Positions 9,840 through 64,000 are shown, counted from the first letter of the stretch. The stretch: 64,000 bases of DNA from Amoebophrya sp. A120 (GCA_905178155.1 CAJINV010000005.1:2975754-3039753); one strand, 5' to 3'. Translations and numbers: made by a program. Notes: generated by a model from the sequence alone, not told the origin.

Positions 9840-12358
9840 TCACAGCTCCACCTTCGGCGGAGGTTTTTTCACCCCGCTACTGCTGCTGCCTGGCAGTTGC
9901 TTTTTCGCCTTCTCCGCGAAATACAGCCACGCCCCGATCGGCCACTCGACTTCGGAGCCGTTGATTTCTTCCGTGAAAGTGATGTTGCTGCATTCGTCGC
10001 AACCGTTGGTGTACATGTGAAGCAGCGTGTAGATGTAGTGCAGTTCGAAGCACCGGTGCGGGAGTTTGGACTTGCTCGTGTACTCGTGTCCCTCCTTGAC
10101 CTTGCTCTGCCACTCCAGCAAGCACAGCTTCTCCGCTATCACACAGAAGAAAACTGGCATAATGCAAAAATAGATACGCAAAAAAATCTGCGTTGCATAT
10201 CTGAAACAGCATGCTGTGGGGCCAAGCATGGCAGATTTTTCTGTGTATTTATTTTTGCATTACAAATATGCCCTGCCAGCTTTTTTCTGTGGCATATCCG
10301 CCGCTTGCTTTACCGATTTGAGCTTCGGTGCGGGAAACTCCTTGAGATAATCGAGTTCCGGGTAGTGCTGCTGCAAAAGCCACCGCGCAAAATGCGTCAC
10401 GTACATGTAGCCGCTGGGTTATGGCGAGAAAAAAAGTTTTCACTAGTATCATCATGATGATCCGGCACTTTTAAAATCTTACTTTTTCCATCATATCCGA
10501 AAATAAGGCACTCGTCCGTGGTGTAGCCGATTGTCTGTACACTAATTACTTTACACGCACGATGTAGTCGCACTTTCATGGCGCCGCGCATGACAAGCAT
10601 ATTCGTAAGTAATTAAGTTGCGGACTATGCAGGAGGATACGAGAAAACTATCCCGAAGCATACGACCGCGATAAATTTCAAGTTCTTGTTCTTCAGTTTT
10701 TTCCAGTCTTTCTGCATGTGGTGCGGTGACCCCTTATCGTGTTCCATCGCCGCGCGCACGAGATCTGTTTTTTTGCGAAAATGTACCGTTATTCATTCGC
10801 CCCTCATCTCGCTGTATAATCAAAGCAATTCCGGCGGCAACAACAGCAGAGGACCTGTAAGAGTAGTTGCATACTGATTTCTGAAAAAGCAACACTTCAA
10901 CGCAAAGTTCACGCACCTGCGCAGGGCTTCCCGCCACTCGAACTACTACCCGCGCTGCTGCTTTCGAAGCCGGAGAAGTAGCAGCTTTTCCTTTCTGCTG
11001 CCGTGAAGAGTTTGTTGACTCGTTCGCGAGTGAGTTCCATCCCGGATTCCGGGAAAGAGCGGATAAAGCTGTTTTGCCTCGTGATCCGGTTGCAGTCGTT
11101 CGGAATGGCAATCTGGGTGCTAGAACCGCCCAGGTCCAGGATTCCGTGCCGTTCGCAGGGCTGCCCAACGTTTTGCATCTGCTTCACCAGGTAGTTCACG
11201 CCCATCAGGGCGAAAAACCCCTCCTGTTCGCCCTCGATGGTTTCCGTGTTCAAGATATCAAATGTAAAAATGTCTGGGTCTGGAAGAATTCATGTTTGTC
11301 ATGCTTGTCTGGCATGACTCTTAAATCTGTCATGCACGTTACCCAAGAGCTCCGTTTTTCTGTGATGCAGAAGCGCAGTTTGTCATGCAGACTAGGCAAC
11401 ACCTAGGAGCTCAGAAACTTGTCATGCTGAGCCAGGATTTGTAGCCTCATCATGAGACGCCACCCAGCATCACAAGTTTCCAGACCCAGACACTTTTACA
11501 TTTGATACAACAGCTGGAACTGCAACTTGTCTGTTGAAATAAGATCATCAGTCCACGGATTACAAAGTCAAGGCACCACTTATCTTTTAAATTTTTTCTT
11601 CGCGAAGGTGACATCATGATCATACATCATCTTCGGTCTTTGCATATTTATCGGACAACATTAAGTCCGATCGGAAATGGAGGGCACCAAACGTCGCAAG
11701 TATAAAAAAATTATCAAAATTTAGAACCCGCTACATCCCCCCGGAAGTAGTCGTTCAGCCCGCTGCTTACGCTCTTCCACACCCCTTCTCGCTTGCTGGA
11801 GGGCAACAGCCGCATGCCCGCGGTCCCGAATATCTTCACCCCGATCGCCCTACCGTAGTACTTCGGCCCCTCCTCCTTCATGAACTTCGCGAACAGCCAC
11901 TGCAACGGCTGCAGCGCCCCCTCTGGTTTCTCGGCGAAGGAGCTGAGTCCCGGCTTCTTCTTGCCGACAATTTTGGAGTGGAGTAGAACGCCATCGGTGT
12001 TGCTGTGAAACACGTACCTGGACAGAATAGTACGGATTTTTATGTAGTACAGGTGTTGAAGATTTTCTTTTGCCGCGTTTATTTCCTAAGGACGTCTCTG
12101 GCAATGCGGCACTTGACCGCCATGGCATTCTTGCGAGACGCGGTAGCATTGAAAAGATCATAGAACGATGAAAACTATCTTCCGAGACAGCTGCTTTGAA
12201 ATTTCCACTGCGAAGAGCGATGGTATGTCAAGAAAGTACATTCGCGATCCCGTGCTCCCCGCGTCTATGATGATTTCCACTTTTTCCGCTTGTGCCAGCA
12301 CCGCGCGCGCCGCCGAGAAAGCAGCCACCGCGATCCGCGTCGGGAAAAGCCGCAACAT
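9840..12358 (-). CDS. GDA1/CD39-family NTPDase (apyrase), multi-exon, with signal peptide and C-terminal KVEL
   Basis: All five apyrase conserved regions are present: IDAGSTGSR, TAGMRLL, IEGEQEG, DLGGSSTQI, VEWPIGA. Two introns are TIR elements. Confidence 0.92.
10137..10296. mobile_element. TIR introner, family D
   Basis: TATCACACAGAAGAAAACTGGCA...TGCCAGCTTTTTTCTGTGGCATA; DR TCCGC/TCCGC. Removal gives KQAAEKLCLLEW. Confidence 0.88.
11256..11507. mobile_element. TIR introner, family A
   Basis: TATCAAATGTAAAAATGTCTGGGTCTGGAA...TTCCAGACCCAGACACTTTTACATTTGATA; DR CAAGA/CAACA. Removal gives FQLLNTETIEGEQEG. Confidence 0.92.
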
Positions 12359-15259: not shown

Positions 15260-17266
15260 ATGGCCTCGCTCCGCCCAGCGGGGGCGACCTCGGAGCAGGA
15301 AAACCGCGCCGCCGACCTCGATCGAAGCCGGACGGCGGTGAGAGAGAAACTGCTGAAGGACTTGCTCAGCTCGGACGAGGACAAAGCCGGCCCTTCCCCG
15401 GCGGCCGCGCATAAGAACGCGGAGGCTTCCGAGCAGCTGGACTCCCGTTCCGCAGCCGGGCCGCACCGCGAGCACGACTGCGACCCCGGCAACCCTTGTC
15501 CCCCAGCTTCGAGCAGTGCGTGCCCCTCGGGAAAAACACCTACGTCGCGGCTCCCGAACGAAGGCGAACTATCTTCGTCCTCACGATCAGAGAAGTCGCA
15601 ACCCGCCGGGGTTCCTCCCCCGGCCGCAATCGCCGACCGGCTCGAAGCCGCGCTCTTTGAGCAGAATCCCGGCAGCGCCTACCTCCCCCGTGTATCAAGG
15701 TGAAACGTGCCCGGCCCCCGGAAGTCGGGCATTTTTCTGAAATACAAAGTTTTTCAATGGATCTTTTCTTGCGGGAGACGACCATCAGTCTGCCCGATGT
15801 AGATTCTAGGCGAGCAGAGTATCTTCTGCATGATAAGCCCGGCTGTTGCCGGATTTTTATATTTTTTGCATAGACAGACTCTTGCTCTGCTGTATCGAAA
15901 ACTTGTGTAGATGCTGCATGCAACATAACAAGTGTCCCCATTGGAAAGCTTTGCGATGTTGTTTCGCGTTCGGGGGTAGAGGCGTTTCTCAATGCCATAG
16001 CGTGCGCGCGAAGTCCTCGCGGGATTGCGCCAGCCGCACCTGCAGCACGTCCGGAAGCAGCTGTTGTCAGGCGCGGTCGATCCAGCCGTGGTGGCCGGTT
16101 GGGACGCGAAGAAATTTTGGAATCCGCAAAAGCGGCGCGCGGGGGCGGGGAAAGTGAACGGCAGCGAAGCAACGAGCGGTAGCGAGTCTTCTCCGGATCT
16201 TGTTCGGGAAGCGAATCGAAGTCGCGAAGAGAATCGAAGTGGAAACCCTAGAGTCGATTCATCCGCAGAGGACCGCAGCGGGGGGACGAGCGGCAGGCAG
16301 CAAGAGGACCACGCCAATCCGAAAGGGAGTGCGGTCGACGGGGAAAGCGACAAGAAAGCGCAGCAGAAGCAAGAAAGCCGGGCGCAGAAGAAGCGGAAGC
16401 ACATTCAGGATAGCTTTCCGCACTTCGACCCCAACTTGGCCTGTGAACAGTGCGAAACTATCGGATATCAACCGCATGCGAAAACTTTACTTCTTTATTA
16501 GGTGGCCTGCAGAGAACTACATGACGCGCTGCTCGTTTCAAAAATCACTTTGCAAGCGAGCATTTTTATGCTATGGGGGCAACATCCATGTATTGATTCG
16601 TTATTCGTCGTATGGTCTTTCAGATTCACGAAGTGGTTTTTTATTTTTTGTGCATACCGACGTCCGCTACGCGATTCTACGAGACACGTGGATGTGGCCG
16701 CGGTGTGGCGGTTATCAAATGCAAAAGTGTCTGGGTCTGGAAGGTTGCAAGGTTTGTCATGCTAGTCTGGCATGACTCTGCACTCTGTATTGCGTGGCCA
16801 CCAAGAGGCCCGCTTGCCTGTCATGCAAGAGCGCAGTTTCTCATGCGAAATACGCAGCACAAGAGCACGAAAAAACTTGTCATGCTTGGCGGTGCATTAC
16901 AGGGCACTTACTTTTCACGGACTTGCATCATAAGTTTCCAGACCCAGACAGATTTGCATTTGATAGCGGCAGAGGCGGAATGATGTCTGCAGACACTGGG
17001 AGGACACTTATCATTCGGGAAATACTAGATTGATATCCTGTTTGTGAAGATGCAGAGGTATGAGAACGCGGAGAGCCTCGGGCGAGTTGACTGTGCCCAT
17101 ATCGCATGGCTTATGCTCAGGTTTAGTTTGCATTCGTTTTTGCATCACAAACATGATTAAATCTTGTATGTTTTGCCGAATAACGTTAATGCTGTATTGC
17201 GAAGCTTGTCAGCACGAGGGCGTGCATCACAGTTTTGCGTAAATGATAACACTTTATGCTGTTTAA
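15260..17266 (+). CDS. TFIIS central-domain protein with a partial Zn-ribbon-like C-terminus (3' part uncertain)
   Basis: After element removal: IADRLEAALFEQNPGSAYLPRAREVLAGLRQPHLQHVRKQLLSGAVDP (TFIIS_M pattern), then ACEQCETIGVRY...MMSADT. Confidence 0.65.
15693..15999. mobile_element. TIR introner, family E-like (diverged)
   Basis: TATCAAGGTGAAACG...CGTTTCTCAATGCCATA; DR CCGTG/GCGTG. Removal restores YLPRAREVL. Confidence 0.78.
16466..16656. mobile_element. Degenerate TIR introner
   Basis: TATC...GCATA ends, weak inverted repeat, no clear DR. Removing the element plus 5 nt gives CEQCETIGVRYAILR. Confidence 0.5.
16713..16965. mobile_element. TIR introner, family A
   Basis: Family A TIRs; DR GCGGT/GCGGC. 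Confidence 0.9.
17009..17248. mobile_element. TIR introner (singleton)
   Basis: TATCATTCGGGAAATACT...AGTTTTGCGTAAATGATA; perfect DR ACACT. Confidence 0.75.
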
Positions 17267-19516: not shown

Positions 19517-22500
19517 ATGATTGATTCTTCCCCGCGCAACATGAGCTACGATGCAGATGATGACGATGTCGTTTACAACGACGACAAGGATCTCGAGGCG
19601 GCTTTTACGGTGGCGGAACAAGAAGACGGCTCTGATATAACCTCGTCCAGCCGGCATCTGAAGTCCCTCGTGGAGGAGGACATTTTTTCCCAGACGCAGG
19701 TAACCGCCGCCCGGCGCAAGAAGCTCGCCCTGGAGTGGAGCCACCTCTCGTTCAATGTCAAGGGCCGGCGCATTCTGCACGACTGCTACGGGAAGGTCTA
19801 CCCCGGCCAGGTGACCGCCCTGATCGGCCCCTCCGGGGCGGGCAAGAGCACGCTGATGAACCTGCTAGCGGCCCGGCAGGGCTGGGGACCACGGTTTCGG
19901 AGCGAGAGTCAAGAAGCGAAGAGCAAAATTTTTGCAGGATCATCCGGAATAAAGCAAGCCGACCAGGAACAAACAAAAGTACTATCCACTTTCGCGGAGC
20001 CGGAAAAAGAAAAGCGGCTGAAGCAGCAGCTTCTCGTTCATCCGGGCGATGATGAAATGAATGGCGCTGAAGTAGAAGAGGAGTCCGAGTCACAGGACCC
20101 GGATCCTGAGGGCGACGAGGACGAAAACGAAGATGATAAAGATTTTGATATCAAGATGGATCTGGGAACTACCAAGAAACGACAAGCAACGACCACCAGC
20201 AGAACCAGTAGCTCTAGAAGTACTCGTTCCACGAAGATCACCACCGGCATTCTTCCCGGGGCGCAGATCCTGTACGGGCGCAAGCCGGTGAGCTTTGAGG
20301 AGCTAAAGTCCTCGGTGGGGTACGTGATGCAGCAGGAGGCGCTGATGGAGATTATCATGCAGAAACAAGCAGGCAAGGCATATTTGTGACCCAGAAAGGA
20401 GTTAACAGGCAAAATGAGCCCATAGCAGGATCCTGTTTAGGATGCGCAGTGCAGATTTTTCTGTGTATTAATTTTTGCATGACAACCATGCCCTGTGCCT
20501 ACTTTTTTCTGTGCGATAGAGACGGAGACCGTCGAAGAACAAATCCGGTTCGCGGCGGCGTTGCGGACCCCCCTGCTGAACGTGCCGCCGAATGCGGTAT
20601 CAAATGCAAAAGTGTCTGGCTCTGGAAACTTGTGATGCTGGGTGGCGTATCATGAGGAGGCCACAAGTTCTGGCTCAGCATGACAAGTTGCTGAGCTTCT
20701 AGGTGTTGCCTATTCTGCATGACAAACTGCGTTTCTGCATGACAGAAAAATGGCGCTCTTGGGTAACGTGCGTGACAGATTTGAGAGTCATGCCAGACAA
20801 GCATGGCAAACATGCACGCTTCCAGACCCAGACATTTTTACATTTGATATGCGGTGAAGCGGAGCAACTGCAAAAAAACCCGGTACTCCGAGGAAAACGC
20901 GGAAAACGTGCTCGAAACCCTGGGGCTGCAGAGCGCGCGCGCCACGAGGACCGGTGCGCTCTCCGGGGGGCAGAAGAAGCGGGTCTCCGTGGGCGTGGAG
21001 TTGGTCACGAGACCGGCGATTGTCTTTCTAGACGAACCCTCCACGGGCTTGGACAGCTACAGCACGCTCCGGCTCTTCTCTATCAAATGCAAATATGTCT
21101 GGATCTGGCAAGGGTGAACCTGTATTGCGTGTTTCGCATTCCTAAAAAATCTGTATGGCATAAGCAGCAGATAAAGCACCACACTTTCGTCATGCAAAAA
21201 TGCACACTCAGTCATGGCCACTAAGCACTACAAGTTTCAAGACCCAGACATATTTGCATTTGATATTCTCCCACCTGCGCCAGTACGCGGTGGAGCAGAA
21301 CGCGATCGTATCGTGAGAAAAAAATGTTACAGTTACACGTTTGTTGGAGTTTCTGCAACACAAATTTTCTCTGTGTGGCAGAGAGAACTTGGAATGCGAA
21401 GATCATAAAGGGAAAACAGGAAGGAAACGAGGCTCCCAAGCATTTCCTGCATGAGAAAGGTTGTCTGTGTTGCCGCTCTTGCAACACAATGTGTAACTGT
21501 AACACTTTTTTCTTGCGATAGATCGTGGTGTGCACGGTGCACCAACCGAGCTCGGAGGTTTTTGACTACTTCGACCGTGTGATCTGCATGCGACAGGGGG
21601 CGGTGCTGTTCCAGGGGTGGAACGGAAAGGCGGCAAGGGCGTATTTGCGCGAAAACGGGCTGTCCGCGACGTCGATGATGCAGCAGGAAGAACAGGGAGG
21701 GAACGACAAGAGCGCTGCTCGAATGAACAGTAGTATGAGTCCGCCGGAAGACGTTTTATCCTGAGTAAAAACTACTACGTGGCCACTTCTTCCGCAGAGG
21801 TGGGACGCAGGTGATTTTGAACACTGCTAATGCGCATCCGAATGTTGAGAGGCATCTTTAGTCGTGTAGATCTGGCGTTACAGATGTAATGCTCTAGGTA
21901 AACAGGGTAGTATACGAGTTTTTGGGCTTTGATGTGAAGATCATGCCGCCTAATTTTTTTACCTGCACTACTACACAGCATGCGTAAAGAAACTTGTCAA
22001 CATGCAAAGGCCCCAAAAGTTCTGGACTTGTCTTGCAGACACCACTGCCCGTTTTGACGATAGAGTCCTTGTGGGCGGGACGTTTTTACTCAGGAAAAAC
22101 CAAACCGCGATCGCTATCCCTCCATTCGGCGGCCTTTGGACTCGGAGTCACCAGCAACACAAATTCTGTGCAAATAACAACAACTACCCGGCTAACGCAG
22201 CAAAAAACTTTCCTGGACGAGATGCACGGGGCTGAGAAATCCAAGCTCGTCGTCTGGAACACAATCAAAGGGTTCCTCGACCCGATGGAATTCAACGGGG
22301 TCCGAGGGATTCCCGAGGGGGTGAACATCGCTTCCTGGCTCCTCCTCCTGGCGCAAATGGTCGACGAGGAGACCGCGATGCGTTATCGTGTTTAAAAAAT
22401 TCGTCCCCATCCCATAGTTGTAATGCAAATCTGCATGCTGATAATGTTTCTCATGCGGAGCCCCATGAGAAGCATTGTCTAGTCGCGTTTTGGATTTTGT

Positions 22501-24598
22501 CATGCTCCAATCAGCATGATAGTGCTAGATCTGTGATGCTGCTGAACTACCTCTGAAACAGTACTACACTCCGAGTTCAGATTTGTCATGCAAAACAGTC
22601 AAAACTTGTGGACTTGTCCAGCCGATTTTTCCCCATCTTGACTCTGGGGCGGTGGGGACGTTTTTCCATAGGATATGCGTTTGGCGTTGCTCACGTCCCG
22701 TGTCTACGAGCGCACCGAGCACCCGGTGCTACCGGTTGACCCAGAAACGGGTCGAAGTAAACACCTTCTCCCGATGCTGATGCGCAACAGCTTGTTCGGG
22801 GGGGAGCTGGACCTGTTCAGTGATGGGAACAATTCAACCACATCCGGCTCGACCCCCTCGTCGAACAAAAGCGGATCGGGGTTCGAACCGAGACCCAATC
22901 TCTTACTGGAGCAGACGGCCGAGATCAAGTGCAACCTCGACGTGGGGCTCGTGCCCAACCTGCTGCGCCAGAAGCATTTGAGCGAACAGTACCTGCGGAA
23001 CTTAAGTGGCTATTTGGCGGCCGACGACATGGGCAAGCAGGAGGTGTATGACCAACCGCCACCGGCCGCGGGCGCAAACTTGGGAAATTTCTCCTGCCAG
23101 TTCCGCATTCTGGCGTACCGGGAATTGACCCACCTGTGTCGCTCGCGCGGGATGCTGCTGGCGCGACTGCTGATTCCGGCGATTCAAATCTTTTTCTACG
23201 GGATCATCTTTTTCCTGGCCGGCCGGCAGCTGCTGTCCGGGTCCGTGACCGGGTTTCCCGGGCTGGAGTGGCTCGGGGTGGCCCGAGAAGATAACATAAC
23301 CGGGAATAATAAACTCGAGACGGAGCAGCAGTGGAACAAAAAGTTGATGGAAGTGTTCGGCGCCACGGGGCAGCCGTTCTACACGTTGACCACGCAGTCG
23401 GCCGGGCAGTTGATCCTGACCATTCCGCGAGAGCGGGTGCTGTTTCTGCGGGAATACTCGTCCGGGATGTACAGCATCACGACCTACCTGTTGGCGAAGC
23501 TCAGCGTGGAGCTGCTGGTGATTTTCGCCCAGTCGGTGCTTCTGCTTCTCCTGCAGTGGATCCTGGTCGGGTTCGCCGCCGAACTGATTCCCGCGTTTTT
23601 CGGCCTGCTCCTCATGAACTCGCTGGCGTCCGGGTCTTTAGGGATGTTCATTTCCTGCCTGGTTGCCGACTACGGGTATCCTGGGTAAAAACGTACCCAC
23701 ACCAGAGTGTTAATGCAGATTTGCAAAAACAGGAAGACTTGTAATGCGCATCACATGAGAGCCATTTCCAATCGTGTTTTGGAATTTGTGATGCTGTGAA
23801 CAGGATGAGCCGATGAATCTGTGATGCGGCTGCACTGGCTAACCTGCACTACACTGCAAAGTGCAACTTGTCAGGCGTGACTCACAAAACTCCTAGGTTT
23901 GTTGCAAAATCCCCATCCTGGCTCTGGTGTGGGTACGTTTTTCCTCAGGATAACGGGGAGGTTGCTCTCTACATCCAGCCCATTTTTTTCCTCACGCTCA
24001 GCTCCGCGTTGTCCGGCAATTTTCGGCCCATCACGGAGATTCCCTGGGCGCTGCGGTTATGCATTGCAAATATGTCTGGGTCTGGAAGGATGCAACGTTT
24101 GTCATGCACATTTCGCATGACTCCTGGTCCTGACGTCTGTGATGCATGCCCTAGCATCACAGATTTCGCGAGGGCTACTTCATGCCTATACCGCATGAGA
24201 AACGCCCTCTCGGCGTGGCAAAAATTGGACCCGTTTTGCTGTTCATGCAATACAGATTTTTGTAGTATTCACATGCAGCATCACAAGTTACATGCCTCCA
24301 GACATCCAGGTATATTTGCACTGGATAGCAGTGGACGGGGTACATTTTCCCCACGGCGTTCATGACGAAGACGCTGGATTTCTTACTCTATCAAAACGTG
24401 GAAAACCAGCTGTGGCCGGGCGAAGTGAGTGACCAAGCCCGGGACGTGCTGATCGCGGCTCGGGACAAGAGATTCGAAAAAAGGGCGCTGTCCAGCGAGA
24501 TTTTGCTCACGAACTTTTTCGGGCTGGCGGCACTCTTTGTTGGCTACCGGGTGCTGGCGGGGATCGTTCTCCGGGTAAACAGCAGGACGATGTACTGA
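19517..24598 (+). CDS. ABCG (White-family) half transporter 1, interrupted by 8 TIR elements
   Basis: Walker A GPSGAGKST, signature LSGGQKKRVSVG, Walker B FLDEPSTGLDS, H-loop CTVHQP, and a TMD with RERVLFLREYSSGMY. Confidence 0.93.
20353..20518. mobile_element. TIR introner, family D
   Basis: TATCATGCAGAAACAAGCAGGCA...TGCCTACTTTTTTCTGTGCGATA; DR GAGAT/GAGAC. Removal restores QQEALME(T/M)ETVEEQIRFAAALR. Confidence 0.85.
20598..20849. mobile_element. TIR introner, family A
   Basis: Family A TIRs; DR TGCGG/TGCGG. Closely similar to 27054-27306 and to the reverse complement of 11256-11507. Confidence 0.93.
21081..21265. mobile_element. TIR introner, family A (short)
   Basis: DR TTCTC/TTCTC. 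Removal restores LRLFSHLRQYA; no GT donor is possible at any slide position. Confidence 0.92.
21309..21520. mobile_element. TIR introner, family B
   Basis: TATCGTGAGAAAAAAATGTTACAGTTACAC...GTGTAACTGTAACACTTTTTTCTTGCGATA; DR GATCG. Removal restores NAIVVCTVHQP. Confidence 0.93.
21757..22097. mobile_element. TIR introner, family C, degenerate right end, no DR
   Basis: TATCCTGAGTAAAAAC...CGTTTTTACTCAGGAAA. Confidence 0.7.
22384..22675. mobile_element. TIR introner, family C
   Basis: DR TGCGT/TGCGT. Removal restores ETAMRLALL; the body is similar to 30541-30819. Confidence 0.9.
23677..23952. mobile_element. TIR introner, family C
   Basis: TATCCTGGGTAAAAACGTACCCACACCAGAG...CTCTGGTGTGGGTACGTTTTTCCTCAGGATA; DR ACGGG. 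Removal restores VADYGEVALYIQP. Confidence 0.93.
24058..24327. mobile_element. TIR introner, family A (diverged)
   Basis: DR GCGGT/GCAGT. Removal restores IPWALRWTGYIFP. Confidence 0.88.
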
Positions 24599-25616: not shown

Positions 25617-28600
25617 ATGGAGGGCGGCACGCTGTCCTATCCGGATGGCGGGGACCACCCGAAATATTTCATTAACAAGTGCGCCGAAGAGCAGGCCGAG
25701 GTGGATGCAAAGCATTGCGAGGAAGAACGGGTCCAAACGCTCGAGCTGCTCACCCGGCGCAACCGCAGCAGCTCTTTGCGCGGGGTTTCTCTCGCATTAA
25801 GCACGGCGACTGCGGCGCAAAAGGGAGAAACTGCGGGGCCGCGAGGAGGACTTCTACCGGGCGGCAATATTGCACCGGCGCAGCAGCAGCAGGACGTCAC
25901 TACACGAAGGAAAACGCCACATCAATCGCCCAGGACTGCTAGTCCGCCGCAGAGCAATCTTTTCGACATAGATCAAGACGATGGTGCTGTCGACCGATTG
26001 GAAAGTTTACGCAGGATCAGCGACGACTTGGTTCACCTCACGGGAGGAGCAGATGATGAACACGTCGGCGACCAGCTGCCGTTAATATTGCCTCCCCTTG
26101 CCATCGGGGACGAGGAAAGCGAAGACTCGGCTCTGCTTCGCTGGCTATGAAATGCAAAAGCATCGTACTAGTATAAATCGCATGACAAATTCCCTCAGCA
26201 TGAAAAATGGAATTTGTAATGCGGATTTAGGTTAAGATGGAGATTTGTAATGCATGATTGCGATTACTACGAGTGCGATACTTTTGCACAGGATACTGGC
26301 ACCGGGCGAACAAATTGATGTTCGAATTTCGCAACATCTCCTTCGAAGCAGCTATCACGATGAAAAATCCCCCCTCCCCAAATCAAAACGAAGTTTCTGA
26401 TGCTGGATTTGCGTACACAAATCAGGTTTGTCTTGCTGGCGAGGATTTCAGGCCCATATGAAGCCTGAGTAGATAGGTTTTGGCCTAGGCGCTTAGCATG
26501 ACAGACGTCTACGCTGTAGCTAAAACAGCATGACAAACCGGCTGTAGAATGCGGCGGAGCTTGTGGAGTTGCCTTCGTGCAACACAGAGACGATTTGTGG
26601 TCACAAATCAGCAACGCAAATTTTCGAAAACGTGCCTTGTCAACATGGGGAGGGGGGATTTTTCCTCTCAATAGCAGCTGGCTCATCATCTTCCTCCGGA
26701 AAGAAAACGTCAACGGCTGCAACCGGGATATCAAATGTAAAAATGTCTGGGTCTGGAAGAATCCAAGATTTGTGATGCAGGTTTTCCATGACCCATGAGG
26801 TCTGAAATGCGAGACCCAGCATGACAGATTTTTTGAGGTCTCGATCATGCCTTTCCTGCATGAGAAACTCCCTCTCAACTTGGTCAAAAGCGGACAGCTT
26901 TTGGCACTCACGCAACACAGATTTTTGCATCATTTAGATTTAGCATGACAAGTTCTAATCTTCCAGACCCAGACATTTTTGCAATCCATACGGGAACCGG
27001 AAAAGCAAAAAGCCGAAGAAACTCATCCTCGACAATTGCTTCGGGTGTTTCCGTATCAAATGTAAAAATGTCTGGGTCTGGAAACTTGTGATGCTGGGTG
27101 GCGTATCATGAGGAAGCCATAAGTGCTGGCTCAGCATGACAAGTTTCTGAGCTTCTAGGTGTTGCCTATTCTGCATGACAAACTGCGTTTTTGCATGACA
27201 GGAAATTGGGGCTCTTGGGTAACCTGCATGACAGGTTTAAGAGTCATGCCAGAGAAGCATGACAAGTCGCGCATTCTTCCAGACCCAGACATTTTTACAC
27301 TTGATATTCCGGCCCGGCGAGGTGACCGCGTTGATCGGACCGTCGGGCGCGGGGAAGTCCAGTTTGATGAACCTGCTCGCCGTATGCCCAGTGAAAACTA
27401 CGCTCCCGCCCCAGCAGATTTGTGATCTTGTGCAGATTATTCGCTGTATTTATTCTTGCGCGAATATAATTTGTATTGCGCCTGCTCGTCTCTATGAGAT
27501 CGAGATGCATGATCGTGGCCGTGAAGTAGATTTGTGGCATTTGTAAAATACTGTATTAACAGGCGTTGCCGAAATTGTGAAGATGCGGATATCGTTTCTA
27601 ATCACTACAACTAAGACCGAAGTGGTCGTGCATGCGTCAGCACTTCTACTCTAGACTTCTGGATTTTTCATTTCTGTAGCAAGATGACTAGGTGCTGGTG
27701 GGGACGCTTTTCCTGAGGATACGCCGCGCGGGTAAAGGGGTTGGAAAAGCTCAGGAAAAACGCGGTTCGGTACGGCGAGCGCGGGGTCACCGGTCCGGAA
27801 CTGCAGGACTCGGTGGCGTACGTCCTGCAAGACGACGTTTTCTTTCCGCACCAGACGGTGCGGGAAACTTTGGATTTCTACGCCCGGCTCCGCCTGCCCC
27901 CCTCCACCAGCTACGAGCAGAGACGGGAGAACGTGGAGGAGGTGTTGCGAACCTTGCAGTTGTCCCACATCGCGGATCAACTGGTCGGGGACCAGAGCCT
28001 GAAAACCATCTCCGGCGGGGAGCGGAAGCGCGTGGCCGTCGGGTGCGAGCTGATCCGGCGCCCGACGGTGCTGATGCTGGATGAGCCGACGAGCGGGCTG
28101 GATTCGTTGTCCGCGTTGAAACTGCTGGTGTACCTGAAAGAGATCGCGGTGGCGCAGCACGCGATCATCGTCTGTACCCTTCATCAGCCGGAGGCGCAGG
28201 TTTGGGACCAGGTGGACCGGGTGCTGTGCATGCGGGAAGGCCGAGTCTTGTTCCAGGGCTGGACGCGGGAGACCAGCGGGCTCGATCGGGGTCTCAGTCC
28301 GGCGGGGCGGGAAGATGAGACCGCTAAAGAACTTGCAAGTAGCCCGAATACAACGAGTGGTCAAAATGGAAGTAGTAGTCCTACAAGGACTTCGAGACGA
28401 GTAGCAGCTCTGGGACGAGCTATCATAGAAGTAGACACAGGAGCGCCGGGAATAAGTCCTGCGCCGTTTGGACGAGATAATCCATCTCCCACCAGTGGAT
28501 CGCGCGGGCACACCAGCTCCGGTAGTGCAAAAAAGGATCTCAGCGTCATATGCAACTTCCTGCAGACGATCGGGCATCCAATGCCAGCTGGCTACGGCTG

Positions 28601-51507: not shown

Positions 51508-54318
51508 ATGACCACGGCCTCCCGGACCGCCGCCGCAGACCGCAGCCTGGCCCAAAACCTGAAAGCAAATATGACCGTTCCCCCGGCGTTTCCGTTCACG
51601 AAGGAGGTGTTGATAGACTTCCTATCCACCACCTCAACCGCGGTAGAAACACTGAAACTCGCTGAAGAGCAAAAATGGGACCACAACAGCGTCGTTGGGG
51701 CGGTGAAGAGTCTCCAAGCGACAGGAGCGATCACGGCGGAGGCAAAACAACGTAAGATTTTTCATATCGCGTGGGGGGCTGTTTCATGATCATGGTTCAT
51801 TTTTCGACGTCATGTGTATCAATTGTGCATTTCTTTGTTCATGAAAGAGCTCAGGAGCATCAGCATGATAATGTTTACATGTTATGGTCAACATCAACCC
51901 CAGATTCCGGGTGGCGGTGCACGGAAGAGGGCGAGAGGTGCGTGGCACAAGGGTCCCCCGAAATCCGAGTGGTCGCTGACGTGAAGAAGCACCCAAGCAC
52001 CACGCAGGATGAGATCACGAGCCGGCTGGGAAAGGACGTCGTGGCGGTCGGTTTCGGCCAGGCAATGAAGAACAAGTGGATTGAACAGGTGAGAAATTGT
52101 TTCTATATGAAGATCATCGAGGTCAAGATCGATGTTGACAGTGGAAAAAATCTTCATCAATATTAGTGCACACGCATTGATCAGATTCATGTTGATGAAA
52201 GTTGATCTATCAAAATCCATACCCCCCAAAAAAAAACGCAAAAAAAAAACAGAACAACCAGCAGCCGAAGAAGGAGCTCGCACCTGGAGAAAAGAAGGAG
52301 AAGGGTCCACCACCCACCTTTGTAGTAACAGCGAAGGGCGAGGCGCCGGTGGACGAGACGGCACAATTACTCTCGCAGGTCCAGTCCGGCGCACTCACAG
52401 ACGAAAAGACGCTGCAAGCGCTGAAGAAGAGAAAACTAATTGCGGTATCTATTGCTTTTCTACATCCACGATTTATTGTACTAGTCATGATGCGCTAATC
52501 GGAAGAAAGAGGAATAAGAGCGTCAATGTGACTGAGCAGCTGCAAATCAATGCGATGCAAAATAAGTACTTACAGCTGCTCGGAGCTGCTGGCGCCAGAA
52601 ACTTGAAAGAGCAGATGTGAAATAAGTGATTCTTCCACCTAATTATCTTCAGATGCAATCCTTGACGGGGTACCTGATTACCAAGGACGCCGCTTTCGAC
52701 AGCAAGGCCCGCGCGCAAAAAGGCATCGCGGAGCTGACCGAGGCACAGATCGCCTCGGGGGAGTGGAAGACCGCGAACTACAAGCCCCTCAACTTCCAGG
52801 CGCAGGGCGCCCAGCTCCCCGCGGGCCAGCTGCACCCCTTGCTGAAGGTGCGGGAGCACTACCGACGGACCTTCTTCCAGATGGGCTTTCAGGAGATGAA
52901 AACCAACCGCTTCGTCGAGTCTTCGTTCTGGAACTTTGACACGCTGTTCCAGCCGCAGCAGCACCCGGCCCGAGACGCGCACGACACCTTCTTCTGCGAG
53001 TCCCCGGAAGCGGCGAACGAGCACTTGATCCCAAAAGACTACCTGGAGGACGTCAAAACGATGCACGAAAAAGGAGGTATATAGATACTGATTCACTGAT
53101 ATGGTGCGGTCCTCTTGTGTTAGACGCTTGAATTTTGGAATTTGCATAATGGGAAAAACTTTTTTTATGCGACATCATGAACACAAAATCTAAATCTATC
53201 TCAAAACCCAGGCCACGGCTCCATCGGGTGGCGGTACACGTGGAGCAAGGAGGAATATCAAATGTAAAAATGTCTGGGTCTGGAAGATTGCCAGGTTTGT
53301 CATGCACGGTTTGCATGACGTGTGAGGTCTGTGATGCAGGCCCTAGCATCACAGATTCTGTGAGATCTTTACCATGCCTTTTCCGCATGAGAAACTGCCT
53401 CTCGGCCTTCTCAAAAGTGAACAGCTTTATTGGTAATCATGCAACACAGATTTTTGTATGATTCAGATTTGGCATGACAAGTTGTACTCTTCCAGACCCA
53501 GACATTTTTGCATTTCATAAGGAAGCCCTCACCACCATCCTCCGAACGCACACCACCGCCTGCACGTCCCGCGTCCTGTACGACCACGCGCAGAAGTGCA
53601 AGAGGAACGGCAAGTGGAAGCCGTTGAAGTGCTTTTCCGTCGACCGGGTCTTCCGCAACGAGACGCTGGATGCGACCCATTTGGCGGAGTTTCACCAGGC
53701 GGAGGGGTTCGTGGCGGACAAAAACCTTACGCTCGGGCATTTGATCGGCTTGTTCAAGGAGTTCTTCAGCCACATCAACATAAAAAACCTGAAGTTCAAA
53801 CCCGCCTACAACCCCTACACGGAACCAAGTACTTACTTACCTGCTGCTGTGTTGGTTTCTTTGTTTGTATAATGCAGTTGGTCATAATTGGTACTGAAAC
53901 CATAGACGAAGTACACGCATGAAAAGAAGTTTTAAAATCACGATAGCGGCATTCACAAAAATCATGATGAAAAATATTAAACTGCCGCTTCCACCCAGGT
54001 ATGGAGATCTTCGGGTACCACCCCGGTCTGAAGAAAACCATCGAGATCGGGAATTCCGGTGTGTTCCGACCGGAGATGCTGCGACCCATGGGGCTGCCGG
54101 AAGACGTCCGCGTGATCGCCTGGGGCCTGTCGCTCGAGCGGCCGACCATGATCCTGTACGGGATTAAAAACATCCGGGACTTGGTCGGGGAGAAGATCGA
54201 CGTGAACACCCTGCGACAAAACCCCGTCTGCTGGTTCCCAGAGCCGGAAGAAGCAGAGGACGGGAACAATAAATCCACCACACCAAACGGAACGACGGAG
54301 CAGAACAATCGGGTGTGA
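51508..54318 (+). CDS. FARSA: Phenylalanine-tRNA ligase alpha subunit (cytosolic)
   Basis: [68 protein letters not shown] and [11 protein letters not shown]. Confidence 0.97.
53256..53519. mobile_element. TIR introner, family A, in PheRS alpha
   Basis: DR AGGAA. Removal restores [20 protein letters not shown]. Confidence 0.94.
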
Positions 54319-55240: not shown

Positions 55241-57010
55241 ATGTCATCTTCCAGATCCAAAAATCGAATAACAGGTGTTGTTGGAGCTGCGGTCTCTGCT
55301 GCGTTTTCTGCTCTCCTTCGTTTTCACCTGCGCATCCGTGGAAGCCGAGAAAGCAAAGGATGGGGAACTGGGCGCGTCGCAGGAGCGAAGCCGAAGCCAC
55401 GATGTGAAAAGCTGGAGGACAACAAAATCGGGGATGATGCTGAGTACTCGGATTCTGCCGCGTACGACCAACCTGGCGACGAGACCGCGTTTCTGGAACA
55501 GGCGGAGCAGCGCGAGGGTCAAGCAGCGCAGGGGACTGCAGCAAGTTCAGCGGCAACGGCAGGTGGGAAGGACCTTAGCGAAGCTGGTGGGCAACACCTG
55601 AGCGAGGAGCAAAGGCACCAGTTGACCGAGGACACTTTCGCCGACATCACGAAGATGTACGAGAACTACCAAAAGCGTGTGGTCCTGCAGAAGGAGCGGG
55701 CCGAGGTTATGGCTCTCTCACACATTGCATTGATCGCTGTTACGTGTTCCATTTGTCATGTAAAATCGCTATCAGCCTCCAGGCGATTGAGCTACTTCGC
55801 ATGACAATGTGTTCTCAACGCGCTCATTAGCATGGAATATTCATATTGTAGTTCCACTTTTGCGATGCGAGACGCGCAAACCCCCTCCTTTCACTTTTGG
55901 AATTGTTGCATTGCAGACTCATGTGACCGCTATCAATGCAACATGTGAGAACTCCATAGAGGTGAGGAAACGGCTTGCGGTCGGAGCTGGGATGTCGGAG
56001 TACGACGCAGTGGTGGCTGGGAAAGTGAAGTCGGAAACAGGTATTGTAAATATATTGTGTTTGATTTTCCTTTGGAATGAAACGTGCGCCAAGGAAATCA
56101 AAATTTTGATTCGTTTGTAGTCTGATGTTGGAATTGAAGGTGTAGCAAAAAAATAAAACAAAATGTTGAAAACCCCTGTGTCTACTTCCAGGTACGTGGG
56201 ATGTGTTCGTCGAGTTGTACAGCAGCGGGGTGCTGCGCACTTTCCGGGAGCGGGACGGCAACCGTGATTTTTTCGTAGATGCGGCCGAGAACGCGGACAC
56301 CTGCCCCATGCGTGAGGTCGACACGAACCAGGACGCGAAAATCAGCCCCGTTGAGCTGCACCAGTACTGCCTGGCGGGAGGGGATGCGGGGAGGTTACAG
56401 GCAGAGGTATCGACTGTTCCTGCGTGTCATGCGGATATGATTTTTTCAGTTGAGCAGACAAGCGGATGTTTGTAGTGAGGATGTGCTCATTGATTTTGTT
56501 TGATCTGTCGATGCGCCACGTTCGTCGGGGCCTGCAAAGCTGGTTTCTCAGATTTCTATAATGGATTGTTTTCCAAACCTCCACTTATCTCAATTTTTTT
56601 AGGTTCCCCCCAACGCAGAATCGGCAAGCATGATGGAATTGAGCGGCATGTCTCAGTGGAACCCGTTTGGGCCGCGGTGCTGCATGGCTACACCAGCTGA
56701 GGAGGAGGAACTGGTGACGCCTCAGGCTCTGGCGGAGATGTCCCCGCATCAGATCGCAAATCTGCGCCCTTGCCAAGAAGTCGCCTATGACACGAACCCG
56801 AACGAGCGAGACCCAGCAGAAGATGGCGGGACCCTGTATGGCGTTGCACGCGGCAACGGGGTCAACTTCATTCAACCGGGAGGCCATGGCGGACATTACT
56901 ACAGAAGTCACACCAATCGATATCACGAAGGCAATCCATTTCCAAACCGCCAACAATTTGTGCCATACTCGGGTCCAGGGCATCGGCTGGGAGCAGATGC
57001 TGACGCGTAG
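55241..57010 (+). CDS. Multi-exon putative secreted EF-hand-like protein
   Basis: Hydrophobic N-terminus; DGNRDFFVDAAE and DTNQDAKISPVE loops; GT-AG introns. Confidence 0.6.
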
Positions 57011-60917: not shown

Positions 60918-61992
60918 GATGATTTTGAAGGGAAGTCGATTCATGTCGCGAGGTAGCGCAAGGTCATTTGGGCGAGTCCATTTAAGTATTAAATCACCAA
61001 CATTTGCGGCTTTAACACAACAACGGCCACTAATGCTGAAGACAAGTTGAATAAGAAAAACAGCGTAATTGTCGCGCCTTTGATTGTGATTTTTTTGGGA
61101 TGACTTGGCGTTCGCGGTTCTTCTTGTTCTGAGTATGACTTGGTGTTCGGGGCCAGCCGGGGGCGGGCAGCTTTTACGCGCCCACGCGCTACCGCAGGCT
61201 CGGCGGCGCGCTGGTTGTGGGCCGCGCGCGCCTTTTGTTAGTTCCTTGGTGGCGGCTTGTCCGGGGGGCGCTCGGGCTCTCACTTCGGCGCAGCGTCTTT
61301 GCGGCCGCGTTCTGGCGGGGGGCGCCAGGTGGCATGCTCCGCCCTGAGCCCCTCATGCGTGCGATTGCGTATGAATAGTAAAGCTTTCGGAGGGTCAGGC
61401 AAGACCTGCAACGCCAAGGGCCAGCTGCAGGCGGAATTGTTCGGCGTATGCAATTGCAGAGGAGTGCTTGTGTTGCCGGTTTGTGTACAGCGAAGCGAGA
61501 GGCACTTGCTGCCGCCTTGTGCAGAGGATTACTTGATGCGTACAACGAGAGAGAGAATTGTAGAGACGGTTTTGATTCTCTAGCCGGGACGCAGGCTTAC
61601 GTTTGAGAGACGGCATCGCTGACGCAGGCTCAGTAGCGGTACGACTGGCGTTTGAGAGATGCAGCTATGAGCGTGTAAGTGTCTAGATCAGGATTTGCGA
61701 GTCATTAAAACAAGCGCTCGCAGGAGATGCCGTTGCCGAAGCCTTTAATATATGGCGTTACCAAAAACGTGATGGCGTCGTAGTAGGTGGAGACGTCGAC
61801 AAATGGAATTCCTTGCGTATGTGTCGTTTTTTAAAAGATGTTGAAGACCTGACGCAACGACCGCAATCCGCGATTCTACGTGCTCCAGCTTGAATTTGTT
61901 TCCTGCAAGTCGCCGCCTGCAGGCAGCAGAGCTGCGTGCTTTGCGCTACTGGAAGTTATTTTCAAGCGACAGCCCCATCAACTTTCGAAAAA

Positions 61993-64000
61993 ATGCCGAT
62001 CAACAAGGACCTTCGGCACCCGGACAACCAGAAGCTCCCGACGGGCTTCGTCGTTGTCGCGTCCACCTCCCGACTATCCGAGAAAAAAACTGTGTTAGTG
62101 TAACTTTCTTTGGCTGACAGCATCACAAATTTGCTCTACATGACAGAGAAATCCTGTCATGCGTGGCTTACAAGAGAAAACACGCATGAAAAGAGGACTG
62201 CGTGGTTGTCTGGCATGACAGGTGTAACAGTTTTGCATTTTCTGCATTACAGAGTTACACTTACACAGTTTTTTTCTTGTATACCCACCGGGCCAAGTGT
62301 CCTACCTGCACGAGAAATCGAACAAGAAGTACATGACCATCGCCCAATGCTGGGAGATTTACAACCAGGACAACAAGGGTTCCCCGATGCAGGACGCGCG
62401 GAGCTTCAAGCTCGGCGCGGTCCCGCCAAAAAGCCAGTCCACCGGGTTTGCGCCCAGCCCGGAGCAGTTGAAGCAGGTGCAGCACGTTCTCGCCAGCACG
62501 GAAAACACCACCCGGGCGGGGAAAACCTGGTTCAAAAAGTTCAACACGAAACAGGCCGGGTCCCTGTCGCTGGAGGAACTGAGTTTGCTGATCGAGGCCC
62601 TGAACCGGGACGTCGGGCTGCCGCCGCTGAACGATCCGAAGTTGCTGGAGGCACTTTTCAACAAATTCGACACGAACAAGAACGGGGTGTTAGAATTCAA
62701 CGAGTTTTTGAACCTCTATGGATGTGTCAGAGTTGAAATCGACAAAGTTGAAATAATTTGTCATGCATAAAATGGATGCCAGTTGGAACCCAGTTTCCAA
62801 GTGGCGCATGACAAATCTCGGTGGTCCCTAAATCCTGTTTGTCATGCTGTTTAGGCAAAGAAGAGTGATTTTCTCATGCTACTTTAGCAGCTCGAGCTGT
62901 AACCCCAAACAGGCTTACAATCGGCCTCACTTGCCTGCTCTGCAACACACGTACCTCGGGTCATGCATTTTATGCATTACAGATTATTTCAACTTTGACG
63001 ATTTCAAACCTGACGCTTCCATAACCTCTACGCGGCGATACTCCGCAGAGTGCGGGACCGGTACATCAAGGCGGGCATTCGGCGGGACTTTTTCATCGAC
63101 AAAAACCGAACGGGCCGACGGCCGGAGGATTTCTACAAGACCCTGAAAAAGCTCGGCGAGGGGGCGTTCGGGCTGGTTTACCTGGTGGAGGAAAACGCGA
63201 CGAAGCAGGAGCGGGTGCTCAAAGTCGTCAACAAGGCGAAGTCCGCCATGCCGCCGGAGGAGCTGCAGCTGGAGATTGACACCTTGAAGTCTCTCGACCA
63301 CCCGCACATCATCCGGCTGTTCGAGTACTTCGAGGACTACAACAACATCTACATCCTGATGGAGTCCGCCAAGGGCGGGCAGTTACTGGACGTCATCGAG
63401 TCGAACTACAAGTCGGGCTACCGGCTGAACGAGCAGTGGATTGCGACGGTGGTCAGTCAGGCGCTGCAGGCGATAAGCTACGTGCACGCGCTATTCTGAG
63501 TAAAAACGTTCCCAACCCTATTGTTGTCATGCAAATCTGCATGCCAAAGCCAAAAACGTTTGTCATGCGGAGCCCCATAAGAACCATTTTCTAGTCGTAT
63601 TTGGGAATTTGTGATGCTAGAAGCAGCATGATATGCTTGATCTGTAATGCCTCTGAACTAGCTAAACAGGATTACACGACGAAGACAAATTTGTCATGCG
63701 AAACAACCAAAGCTGGTGGATTTGTATAGCAGATTTCGCATCTTCACTCTGGTGTGGGGGCGTTTTTACTCAGGATACGCGCGAGGGATCATGCACAAGG
63801 ACGTGAAGGCGGAAAACATCATGCTGCTGGAGGACGGAAACAACTCCGCCACGCAGCCACACGCAGTTATCCTGAGTAAAAACGTACCCACACCAGAGTC
63901 AGGATGGGGATTTTGCAACACAAACCTAGGAGTTTTGTGAGTCACGCATGACAAGTTGCGCTCTGCAGTGTAGTGCAGGTTAGCAAGTGCAGCCGCATCA
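61993..64000 (+). CDS. Ca2+-dependent protein kinase-like: WW-like N-terminus, EF-hands, CAMK-group kinase (truncated by the window edge)
   Basis: LPTGFVVVASTSRPGQVSYLHEKSNKKY; DTNKNGVLEFNE; LGEGAFGLV, VLKVV, LDHPHIIRLFEYFED and HKDVKAENIML. Confidence 0.9.
62075..62283. mobile_element. TIR introner, family B-like
   Basis: TATCCGAGAAAAAAACTGTGTTAGTGTAACT...AGTTACACTTACACAGTTTTTTTCTTGTATA; DR CCGAC/CCCAC. Confidence 0.9.
62717..63023. mobile_element. TIR introner, family F
   Basis: DR ACCTC. Removal restores EFLNLYAAILRR. Confidence 0.94.
63492..63777. mobile_element. TIR introner, family C
   Basis: DR CGCGC. Removal restores YVHARGIMHKDVK. Confidence 0.94.
63868..64000. mobile_element. TIR introner, family C (partial, window edge)
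   Basis: TATCCTGAGTAAAAACGTACCCACACCAGAG; reverse complement of the right half of 23677-23952. Confidence 0.88.

What the first reader, a model, noticed from the sequence alone, without database searches (positions are those of the whole stretch)
10137..64000. About 35 MITE-like TAT...ATA elements that behave as precisely removed non-canonical introns
Seen: ~35 elements of 140-340 bp from at least 6 TIR families share the grammar [5-bp DR]-TAT...ATA-[5-bp DR]. They interrupt conserved coding sequence, including housekeeping genes (RPL7A, PheRS alpha), the region just before an ABC Walker A motif, and the region just before a kinase catalytic loop. For nearly all, deleting the element plus one DR restores the protein; retention gives stops or frameshifts. 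For DRs TTCTC (21081), TTCCC (40850) and ACCTC (62717), no slide of the junction gives a GT, GC or GA donor. Known: introner elements with inverted and direct repeats have been reported in Amoebophrya, so the class itself is probably not new, but I know of no established removal mechanism. Inference: a structure- or TIR-guided excision system operates alongside normal GT-AG splicing within the same genes.
Basis: partly seen in the sequence, partly recalled or inferred. Interest (0 to 1): 0.95.

Follow-up and report, generated by a model that had tools for sequence, protein, structure and literature searches.

The report
Fixed splice ruler in Amoebophrya introners
These are the already published transposon-like introns of the marine parasite Amoebophrya A120: every copy that transcript contigs bridge is missing as its own length plus five bases, the only cut that fits all of them lies one base before the TAT start and four bases after the ATA end, and the cut is likely made by a relaxed spliceosome that still demands U and A at the second and third intron positions, which would give a testable rule for a removal mechanism that is still unknown.

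Summary
Observation confirmed: 38 complete elements (36 in the stated range) plus one cut off by the window end; 22 have an exact 5-bp repeat. Three annotated proteins match Amoebrophrya sp. A120 at 100%, so these are the introner elements of Farhat et al. 2021 (known). RNA-like contigs lack 17 elements as length+5 (9 direct joints, 8 by record arithmetic); annotated proteins add 9; 12 rest on frame restoration alone. Elements with decayed repeats fix the cut: intron = N-TAT…ATA-NNNN (-1/+4), oriented by transcription, exact at a repeat-less element in two samples. The paper calls this border variable. In 237 strand-oriented relatives from another assembly, the 5′ TA never varies while the 3′ counterpart varies 8 times; G at +1, AG at the end and G·U pairs are not enriched. 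Best reading: a relaxed spliceosome (0.55); rival: a hairpin-guided nuclease plus ligase (0.3). No transposase was found. This scan noted the -1/+4 rule before on other A120 windows; the 5′/3′ asymmetry and a phase-0 excess did not come up in my look-up.

The parts
4185..4416 (-). Decayed element, repeat 3/5 (outside stated range)
   Evidence: not tested by RNA or protein
4588..4728 (-). Element, repeat 5/5 (outside stated range)
   Evidence: frame restoration only
10137..10296 (-). Element in GDA1/CD39 apyrase gene, repeat 5/5
   Evidence: joint 10131-10297, skips 165
10420..10662 (-). Decayed element in apyrase gene, repeat 1/5, GT..CC intron, 5′ TIR largely lost, inner TIR-like end at 10495
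   Evidence: joint 10415-10664, skips 248, allows only -1/+4 or -2/+3
11256..11507 (-). Element in apyrase gene, repeat 4/5
   Evidence: joint 11250-11508, skips 257; excludes a plus-strand-oriented cut
15693..15999 (+). Element in TFIIS-like gene, repeat 4/5
   Evidence: P0003 removes 312
16466..16656 (+). Decayed element in TFIIS-like gene, repeat 2/5
   Evidence: P0003 removes 196; residue G fits -1/+4 or 0/+5 only
16713..16965 (+). Element in TFIIS-like gene, repeat 4/5
   Evidence: P0003 removes 258
17009..17182 (+). Decayed element in TFIIS-like gene, repeat 3/5
   Evidence: P0003 removes 179
20353..20518 (+). Element in ABC transporter 1, repeat 4/5
   Evidence: joint 20347-20519, skips 171; excludes 0/+5
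20598..20849 (+). Element in ABC transporter 1, repeat 5/5
   Evidence: joint skips 257
21081..21265 (+). Element in ABC transporter 1, repeat TTCTC
   Evidence: joint skips 190
21309..21520 (+). Element in ABC transporter 1, repeat 5/5
   Evidence: joint skips 217
21757..22097 (+). Element in ABC transporter 1 ending AAA, no repeat (0/5); removed 21756-22101, TT..CC
   Evidence: joint 21755-22102, skips 346, no slide possible, in X3 and X6
22384..22675 (+). Element in ABC transporter 1, repeat 5/5
   Evidence: record arithmetic leaves 297
23677..23952 (+). Element in ABC transporter 1, repeat 5/5
   Evidence: record arithmetic in X3 and X6
24058..24327 (+). Element in ABC transporter 1, repeat 4/5
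   Evidence: next piece starts 24331; allows -2/+3, -1/+4, 0/+5
26146..26295 (+). Element in ABC transporter 2
   Evidence: one of five whose summed length+5 equals the 1350 bases missing from X3 record 10
26353..26673 (+). Element in ABC transporter 2
   Evidence: same sum
26729..26990 (+). Element in ABC transporter 2
   Evidence: same sum
27054..27306 (+). Element just before Walker A of ABC transporter 2
   Evidence: same sum; junction peptide
27383..27721 (+). Element just after Walker A of ABC transporter 2
   Evidence: same sum
30183..30489 (+). Element in ABC transporter 2, repeat 5/5
   Evidence: frame restoration only
30541..30819 (+). Element in ABC transporter 2, repeat 5/5
   Evidence: frame restoration only
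31091..31369 (+). Element in ABC transporter 2, repeat 4/5
   Evidence: frame restoration only
33403..33663 (+). Element in RPL7A, ends ATG
   Evidence: joint 33397-33664, skips 266, in X3 and X6
35602..35880 (+). Element flanked by an 11-bp near-duplication, 5-bp repeat 0/5; removed as length+5
   Evidence: X6 piece ends 35600; P0001 removes 284
35941..36202 (+). Element, repeat 5/5
   Evidence: P0001 removes 267
37356..37631 (+). Element, repeat 4/5
   Evidence: P0001 removes 281
38468..38679 (+). Decayed element, repeat 1/5; an in-frame AG directly after ATA is not used in the gene model
   Evidence: P0001 removes 217, reads DLEG not DLHEG
40650..40790 (+). Element with repeat CAAGG, reads GT..AG at -1/+4
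   Evidence: frame restoration only
40850..41155 (+). Element with repeat TTCCC
   Evidence: frame restoration only
44251..44513 (+). Element, repeat 4/5 (fourth letter differs)
   Evidence: P0002 removes 268; residue I fits -1/+4 or 0/+5 only
53256..53519 (+). Element in PheRS alpha, repeat 5/5
   Evidence: frame restoration only
55708..55958 (+). Element with repeat GAGGT (GT-AG possible at -2/+3)
   Evidence: frame restoration only
62075..62283 (+). Element in EF-hand kinase gene, repeat 4/5
   Evidence: frame restoration only
62717..63023 (+). Element in EF-hand kinase gene, repeat ACCTC
   Evidence: frame restoration only
63492..63777 (+). Element just before the kinase catalytic loop (HKDVK)
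   Evidence: frame restoration only
63868..64000 (+). Left part of an element cut by the window end

Best explanation
The elements are small repeated introns with inverted ends, likely non-autonomous DNA transposons that duplicate 5 bp on insertion, and transcripts lack them at one fixed register, one base before TAT and four bases after ATA, a cut likely made by a relaxed spliceosome. Shown: presence in DNA-like contigs, absence from RNA-like contigs, removal of length+5, the -1/+4 register, its orientation by transcription, and its independence of the repeat. Inferred: the TIR supplies intron positions +2 to +4 (U-A-Y), which the spliceosome would read as a donor with +1 free; read from the other side the same TIR supplies a U-rich tract 15-19 bases before the junction, and the acceptor would be measured from the element end rather than chosen by AG; the hairpin would help bring the ends together without being strictly required. 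Because 1+4 equals the 5-bp duplication, an insertion anywhere and in either orientation restores the original message.
For: Register: 6 RNA-informative junctions share only -1/+4; I noted the rule after (note) and it predicted the 21755-22102 joint, which has no slide. Four annotated-protein junctions allow only -1/+4 or 0/+5. -1/+4 is the register that gives GT..AG for repeat CAAGG. In 237 oriented elements of another assembly the first two letters of the 5′ end are TA in 237, while the last two of the 3′ end differ in 8 (two-sided p=0.008; 0 against 10 with the two window cases, p=0.002); the one 5′ variant is TAC (6). Canonical donors here begin GTA in 9 of 12, GTAC in 4. G·U against A·C in the arms: 183 to 193 and 51 to 41 in the window, so no sign of selection on RNA pairing. 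All nine classes listed as predominant for A120 in Table S4 of PMC7789003 have T at +2, and that paper finds 83 of 89 spliceosomal proteins. Terminal pairing is predicted below 0.5 for 9 of 38 elements, four of them removed in the gene models.
Against: No enrichment of G at +1 (58 of 200, background 30%) or AG at the end (16 of 200, background 7.4%); only 4 of 200 read GT-AG. No fixed branch A: the A at -7 is replaced in 3 of 237. In 29 of 38 elements the donor is predicted to lie in a stem, which would hinder snRNA pairing, and U1 snRNA was not detected (PMC7789003). A nuclease that reads UA at the base of a stem would give the same asymmetry. One element below my strand threshold (L122:301-562) leans to a 5′ AAT, a possible counter-example, though its flanks share an 11-base repeat. 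Strands in the 237 come from a codon model checked only on the window it was trained on (26 of 26 correct at a margin above 3, 33 of 38 overall), with no RNA. X3 and X6 are two samples of one study and are contigs, which drop rare junctions. No lariat or circle data.
Confidence: 0.55

Rival explanations
1. A spliceosome-independent system recognises the TIR hairpin, cuts 1 base before and 4 bases after the stem and ligates the exons: a precise version of SOS splicing, or a parallel of the unknown machinery of Euglena nonconventional introns.
For: About 80-85% of the first 25-30 arm positions are complementary; terminal pairing is predicted in 29 of 38; no G at +1, no AG, no fixed branch A; U1 not detected; Euglena uses fixed spacers of 3 and 5 bases around a paired motif (PMC12501133); ITR-triggered excision with RTCB exists in animals (PMC12779559).
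Against: 5′ UA is invariant while its partners vary, and G·U is not favoured; elements with largely decayed arms are still removed at the same register (10420-10662 by RNA; 16466, 17009, 38468 in gene models); the register coincides with GT-AG; SOS splicing is described as imprecise.
Confidence: 0.3
2. A dedicated second spliceosome, or a protein adaptor bound to the repeated internal motif TGTNATGC, marks these introns and delivers them to the catalytic core.
For: The motif set occurs at 13.7 per kb inside elements and 0.43 per kb outside; one 8-mer is in 26 of 38 elements of otherwise unalignable families; 3 of 12 canonical introns hold one copy.
Against: The motif occurs in both orientations, as expected of a DNA-level (transposase) site; 4 of 38 elements lack it, two of them (15693, 16466) removed in the gene model.
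Confidence: 0.1
3. The junctions are reverse-transcription artefacts: template switching across a hairpin between direct repeats.
For: Hairpin plus short repeat is the known setting for such artefacts (recalled; PMC8240250 seen as a search listing only); the data are presumably cDNA-derived.
Against: The 21755-22102 joint has no shared letters and falls where the rule predicts in two samples; retention would break RPL7A and PheRS; the only unspliced piece listed has depth 3 against 99.
Confidence: 0.02
4. The elements are excised from DNA at some life stage, as ciliate internal eliminated sequences are.
For: TIR plus repeat anatomy; library types of X1, X3 and X6 are not on record.
Against: X1 contigs run through the element borders, while X3 and X6 also skip GT-AG introns and have no depth in intergenic bins; the register follows the direction of transcription.
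Confidence: 0.02

Closest known systems
Introner elements of Amoebophrya sp. A120 (Farhat et al. 2021, PMC7789003; abstract, sections 10, 11, 12, 16, 32, 36, supplement passages and part 3 of 5; figures not seen)
   Same: Same organism by database label; TAT + 7 bases + A-run ends, 3-5 base repeats, about 240 bases, RNA-supported non-canonical introns, many families, no A120 transposase reported.
   Different: The text calls the splice position relative to the hairpin variable or unknown (1-5 bases) and finds no clear signature; here it is fixed at -1/+4, the duplication is strictly 5, and the 5′ UA is invariant.
A120 introner families of Gozashti et al. 2025 (PMC12130899; passages; 19 of 58 A120 rows of one supplementary table)
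   Same: TIR DNA families of 150-340 bases with mixed annotated ends (for example gt 92 of 331).
   Different: In the rows seen, duplication lengths are given as 2-5 or not determined and no shared cut rule appears; their family 38 with a Copia/Gypsy-like reading frame has no counterpart in this window.
Euglena nonconventional introns (PMC12501133, abstract and section 8; PMC11282704, passages)
   Same: Paired ends, free terminal letters, junction set by spacer length, coexistence with GT-AG introns.
   Different: Motif CAG/CTG with spacers 3 and 5-6 and a purine after the junction; circles reported. Here TAT/ATA with 1 and 4, no exon preference seen, product unknown.
SOS splicing (PMC12779559, part 1 of 13 and passages)
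   Same: Removal of ITR-bearing DNA transposons from mRNA at non-GU-AG sites.
   Different: Imprecise and leaves indels; needs AKAP17A, CAAP1, RTCB. Here one exact junction per element in the contigs; factors not tested.
Fritillaria borealis non-canonical introns (PMC11282704 and PMC13326754, passages)
   Same: TIR/TSD-derived introns handled by an altered U2 spliceosome; precedent for the best explanation.
   Different: Those keep preferred ends (AG-AC, AG-AT); here +1 and the last two letters are at background.

Membership tests
Amoebophrya A120 introner elements | Located in the A120 genome | tested here: met
   Three exon queries each hit one protein labelled Amoebophrya sp. A120 at 100%
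Amoebophrya A120 introner elements | Inverted ends starting TAT, 7 looser bases, then an A-run | tested here: met
   Profile of 66 ends
Amoebophrya A120 introner elements | 3-5 base direct repeats at the borders | tested here: met
   22 of 38 exact, 9 of 38 at 4/5
Amoebophrya A120 introner elements | Repeated in the genome | tested here: met
   5 families in the window; 24 of 38 match related loci over 80% of their length
Amoebophrya A120 introner elements | Absent from RNA at non-GT-AG junctions | tested here: met
   17 elements by RNA-like contigs
MITE (non-autonomous TIR DNA transposon) | TIRs, fixed-length duplication, no coding capacity, either orientation | tested here: met
   Exact 5-base repeat in 267 of 365 candidates; both orientations; no target preference
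MITE (non-autonomous TIR DNA transposon) | Cognate autonomous element with a transposase | tested here: inconclusive
   No transposase family among 39 frames and proteins scanned; the genome was not available
MITE (non-autonomous TIR DNA transposon) | Empty site in a relative | not testable with these tools
   The related loci do not overlap the window's genes
Canonical U2 (GT-AG) intron | GT/GC donor and AG acceptor | tested here: not met
   2 of 38 by any slide; 4 of 200 at -1/+4 in related loci
Canonical U2 (GT-AG) intron | U at +2 and A at +3 | tested here: met
   237 of 237 and 38 of 38 (the window's set was picked for TAT)
Canonical U2 (GT-AG) intron | Lariat intermediate and spliceosome dependence | not testable with these tools
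   No raw reads of this strain: X9 covered only one repeat fragment
SOS splicing substrate | Heterogeneous excision sites with indels | tested here: not met
   One joint per element, no alternative listed among all 11 joints; contigs can hide rare forms
SOS splicing substrate | Needs AKAP17A, CAAP1, RTCB | not testable with these tools
   No genome or proteome held
Euglena nonconventional intron | N3-CDG…CHG-N5-6|R signature | tested here: not met
   N1-TAT…ATA-N4, first exon base at background

The most novel reading that the evidence does not exclude
Amoebophrya A120 has a second, exact splicing chemistry: a nuclease-ligase system that reads UA at the base of any transposon hairpin and cuts -1/+4, matched to the 5-bp duplication, so that tens of thousands of insertions vanish from mRNA without a scar. 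This would be a precise, genome-wide counterpart of SOS splicing that works beside the spliceosome in the same genes.
Probability: 0.3. Interest if true: 0.9.

Novelty: already known. Interest (0 to 1): 0.52.

Why it matters
The elements are published, but how they are removed is stated as open. A fixed -1/+4 rule with invariant U+2 and A+3 turns an apparent chaos of splice sites into one signal, explains why insertion is harmless at any site and in either orientation, would correct border placement for about 30,000 annotated introns (figure from PMC7789003), and tells experimenters which bases to mutate and where to look for a branch. Either outcome is of interest: a spliceosome that needs neither G+1 nor AG, or a new exact excision pathway.

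Tried and rejected
No whole genome was held and the records behind the related loci could not be searched further, so family counts and the transposase search are local. No holder of the stretch was on record as RNA; X3 and X6 are treated as RNA because they skip GT-AG introns. X3 and X6 did not cover the TFIIS-like gene. A branch point at the A at -7 looked invariant in 66 window ends but fails in 3 of 237: dropped as a fixed rule. An apparent excess of G as last intron base in the window was not seen in 200 related elements. A 'canonical donor joined to a TIR acceptor, no hairpin' reading of 10420-10662 depends on flank length: ends unpaired with 20-base flanks (z +0.97), first three pairs at 0.85-0.97 with 10-base flanks: inconclusive. 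Long TIR-bounded spans: L043 (972 bp, in RPB1) holds inner TIR copies and no long frame; the 415-aa frame in L068 has no Pfam match. Two viral-contig hits are AT-rich coding matches of 22 bases, taken as chance and dropped. No Rfam match in the window. One search chose frames automatically and some are wrong; three coordinates there were off and were corrected. Rows dropped before the 237: 46 of 365 (viral loci, length above 520, or weak arms and repeat) and 82 of 319 (strand margin or short flank).
Full report
Observation. A strict scan of the window for 5-base repeat, TAT…ATA, same repeat gave 30 pairs, 23 with clear inverted ends. Relaxed scans, RNA joints and protein mapping gave 38 complete elements of 141-341 bp and one cut by the window end. 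Of the 38, 22 have an exact repeat, 9 match 4 of 5 and 7 match 3 or fewer. They form five multi-copy families and 16 singletons and lie in both orientations relative to their genes. Host genes by Pfam are an apyrase, a TFIIS-like protein, two ABC-2 transporters, RPL7A, PheRS alpha and an EF-hand kinase. One perfect-repeat pair (17009-17248) proved to be chance; the gene model implies 17009-17182.

Identity. Three exon queries each returned a single protein, 100% identical and labelled Amoebophrya sp. A120. Farhat et al. 2021 (PMC7789003; I read the abstract, six sections, supplement passages and part 3 of 5, not the figures) describe these introner elements: TAT, seven looser bases, an A-run, 3-5 base repeats, 29,850 copies. 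[quoted passage not shown] The class is therefore known.

Removal. In one search, run X1 gave contigs that run through element borders; X3 and X6 gave contigs that skip both GT-AG introns and elements and leave intergenic bins empty, so I treat them as RNA (the tool marks this as a guess; two samples, one study; X1 may be the source of the assembly). Nine elements have direct joints of length+5 (33403; 10137, 10420, 11256, 20353, 20598, 21081, 21309, 21757, where all 11 joints were listed and none was an alternative junction). Three more follow from record coordinates (22384, 23677, 24058), and five in the second transporter sum exactly to the 1350 missing bases. Annotated proteins remove length+5 at nine more; these are gene models, not raw evidence. 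Twelve elements rest on frame restoration alone. One unspliced piece at depth 3 sits beside depth 99 at 21757.

Register. A perfect repeat hides the cut; decayed repeats show it. After I noted the rule intron = N5-TAT…ATA-N1N2N3N4. It predicted removal of 21756-22101 for an element with no repeat and an AAA end; one search shows the joint 21755-22102 with no possible slide in both samples. The allowed registers are: 21757, -1/+4 only; 35602, -1/+4 only (piece end with the length); 10420, -1/+4 or -2/+3; 24058, -2/+3 to 0/+5; 11256, 0/+5 to -3/+2; 20353, -5/0 to -1/+4. Only -1/+4 fits all six. The two minus-strand cases fit when read in the direction of transcription, and 11256 excludes a plus-strand-oriented cut. 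Residues at 16466, 35602, 38468 and 44251 allow -1/+4 or 0/+5. At 35602 the flanks hold an 11-base near-duplication, yet length+5 is removed; at 38468 the model ignores an in-frame AG directly after ATA. All nine predominant A120 classes in Table S4 of the paper have T in second place, as the rule predicts.

Larger sample. A pattern scan returned 136 loci; the 80 listed are all contigs of one other assembly, and they carry the same families at 74-97% identity with no overlap with the window's genes. They held 365 candidates, 267 with an exact 5-base repeat against 1 with 4 and 0 with 6; 30 shuffled loci gave 4 hits against 124. A codon model (26 of 26 correct on the window at margin above 3, 33 of 38 overall; trained there, so optimistic) oriented 237 of 319 retained elements. 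Among 200 with perfect repeats the target is at background: G at +1 in 58, AG at the end in 16, GT-AG in 4. The 5′ end begins TA in 237 of 237 (TAT 231, TAC 6). The 3′ end varies in 11, eight of them in the last two letters (p=0.008; with 21757 and 33403, 0 against 10, p=0.002). One weakly oriented element (L122) may be a counter-example and one (L021) agrees. G·U and A·C oppositions are equal (183, 193). The A at -7 is replaced three times. Intron phase at -1/+4 is 117:60:60 (p=1e-6); the frame caller shows no bias on random sites and local composition does not explain it. I leave this unexplained.

Mechanism. A DNA-level constraint on symmetric ends cannot tell the transcript's 5′ end from its 3′ end, so the asymmetry points to selection on the RNA for U+2 and A+3. 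These are the positions that canonical donors here share (GTA in 9 of 12) and, from general knowledge (recalled), the ones the spliceosomal core contacts; -1/+4 is also the register that yields GT-AG when the repeat is xxAGG. With no wobble bias and with decayed elements still cut in register, I favour a relaxed spliceosome that measures the acceptor from the element end (0.55). Against it: no trace of G+1, AG or a fixed branch A, a donor predicted inside a stem in 29 of 38, and U1 undetected. A hairpin-guided nuclease and ligase that reads UA remains possible (0.3); SOS splicing (PMC12779559, part 1 of 13 and passages) and the Euglena spacer code (PMC12501133, abstract and section 8) are precedents, though the first is imprecise and the second uses other motifs. 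An internal motif, TGTNATGC and variants, is about 30-fold enriched in elements but occurs in both orientations and is missing from 4 of 38; a transposase site is the simpler reading (inference). No transposase was found among 39 frames and proteins.

Novelty. The elements are already known. Four searches showed no paper stating a fixed register; I read only part of the hits, did not see the figures of PMC7789003 (Fig. 3, S19-S25), saw 19 of 58 A120 rows in PMC12130899 (one supplementary file was not searched) and saw the Roy et al. preprint only as a listing, so the rule may be implied somewhere I could not see. Other agents of this scan reported the same -1/+4 rule on other A120 windows; my version was written down before that look-up and tested here. 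One word search for the asymmetry, wobble and phase results returned nothing. Verdict: real, known class, with a rule and an asymmetry that make the open question of removal directly testable. Interest 0.52.

Noticed in passing
L001-L135 (237 oriented elements): Intron phase at the -1/+4 register is 117:60:60 (phase 0 excess, p=1e-6) although the target sequence is at background; unexplained.
   Followed up: partly
window 35591-35891: The 35602 element is flanked by an 11-bp near-duplication rather than 5 bp; removal of length+5 leaves six extra coding bases.
   Followed up: yes
window 10420-10495 (-): A 76-base inner TIR-like hairpin forms the 3′ end of the GT..CC intron 10416-10663; it may be a short element inside an older intron.
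   Followed up: partly
window 32719, 32958, 33897, 44729, 48789, 48833, 56425: The internal element motif also occurs in some GT-AG introns (RPL7A, SHMT and others), which may be decayed elements.
   Followed up: partly
window 17400-18600: Degenerate tandem array of about 16-base units (AAGCGAGGCACTACTT-like), not covered by the RNA-like runs.
   Followed up: no
window 26906-26980: Raw RNA run X9, which covers no exon here at 95%, has about 200 reads bearing this element fragment in another sequence context: the family is expressed in a different strain or species.
   Followed up: no
window 2236-3261: Two TIR-like ends about 1 kb apart without a repeat; frames inside have no Pfam match.
   Followed up: partly
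window 12950-15200, 42500-43500, 61100-61400: GC-rich intergenic blocks, one with a poly-G run at 13397-13442 and near the switch from minus- to plus-strand genes; six frames scanned had no Pfam match.
   Followed up: partly
window 57873-59384 (+): 503-codon low-complexity open frame with no Pfam match and no element.
   Followed up: partly
window 48180-50205 and 59875-60917 (+): Serine hydroxymethyltransferase gene with GT-AG-like introns only, and an intronless proline N-methyltransferase gene.
   Followed up: partly
L043:4001-4972: 972-bp composite element with a perfect 5-bp repeat and inner TIR copies, inside the RNA polymerase largest-subunit gene.
   Followed up: partly
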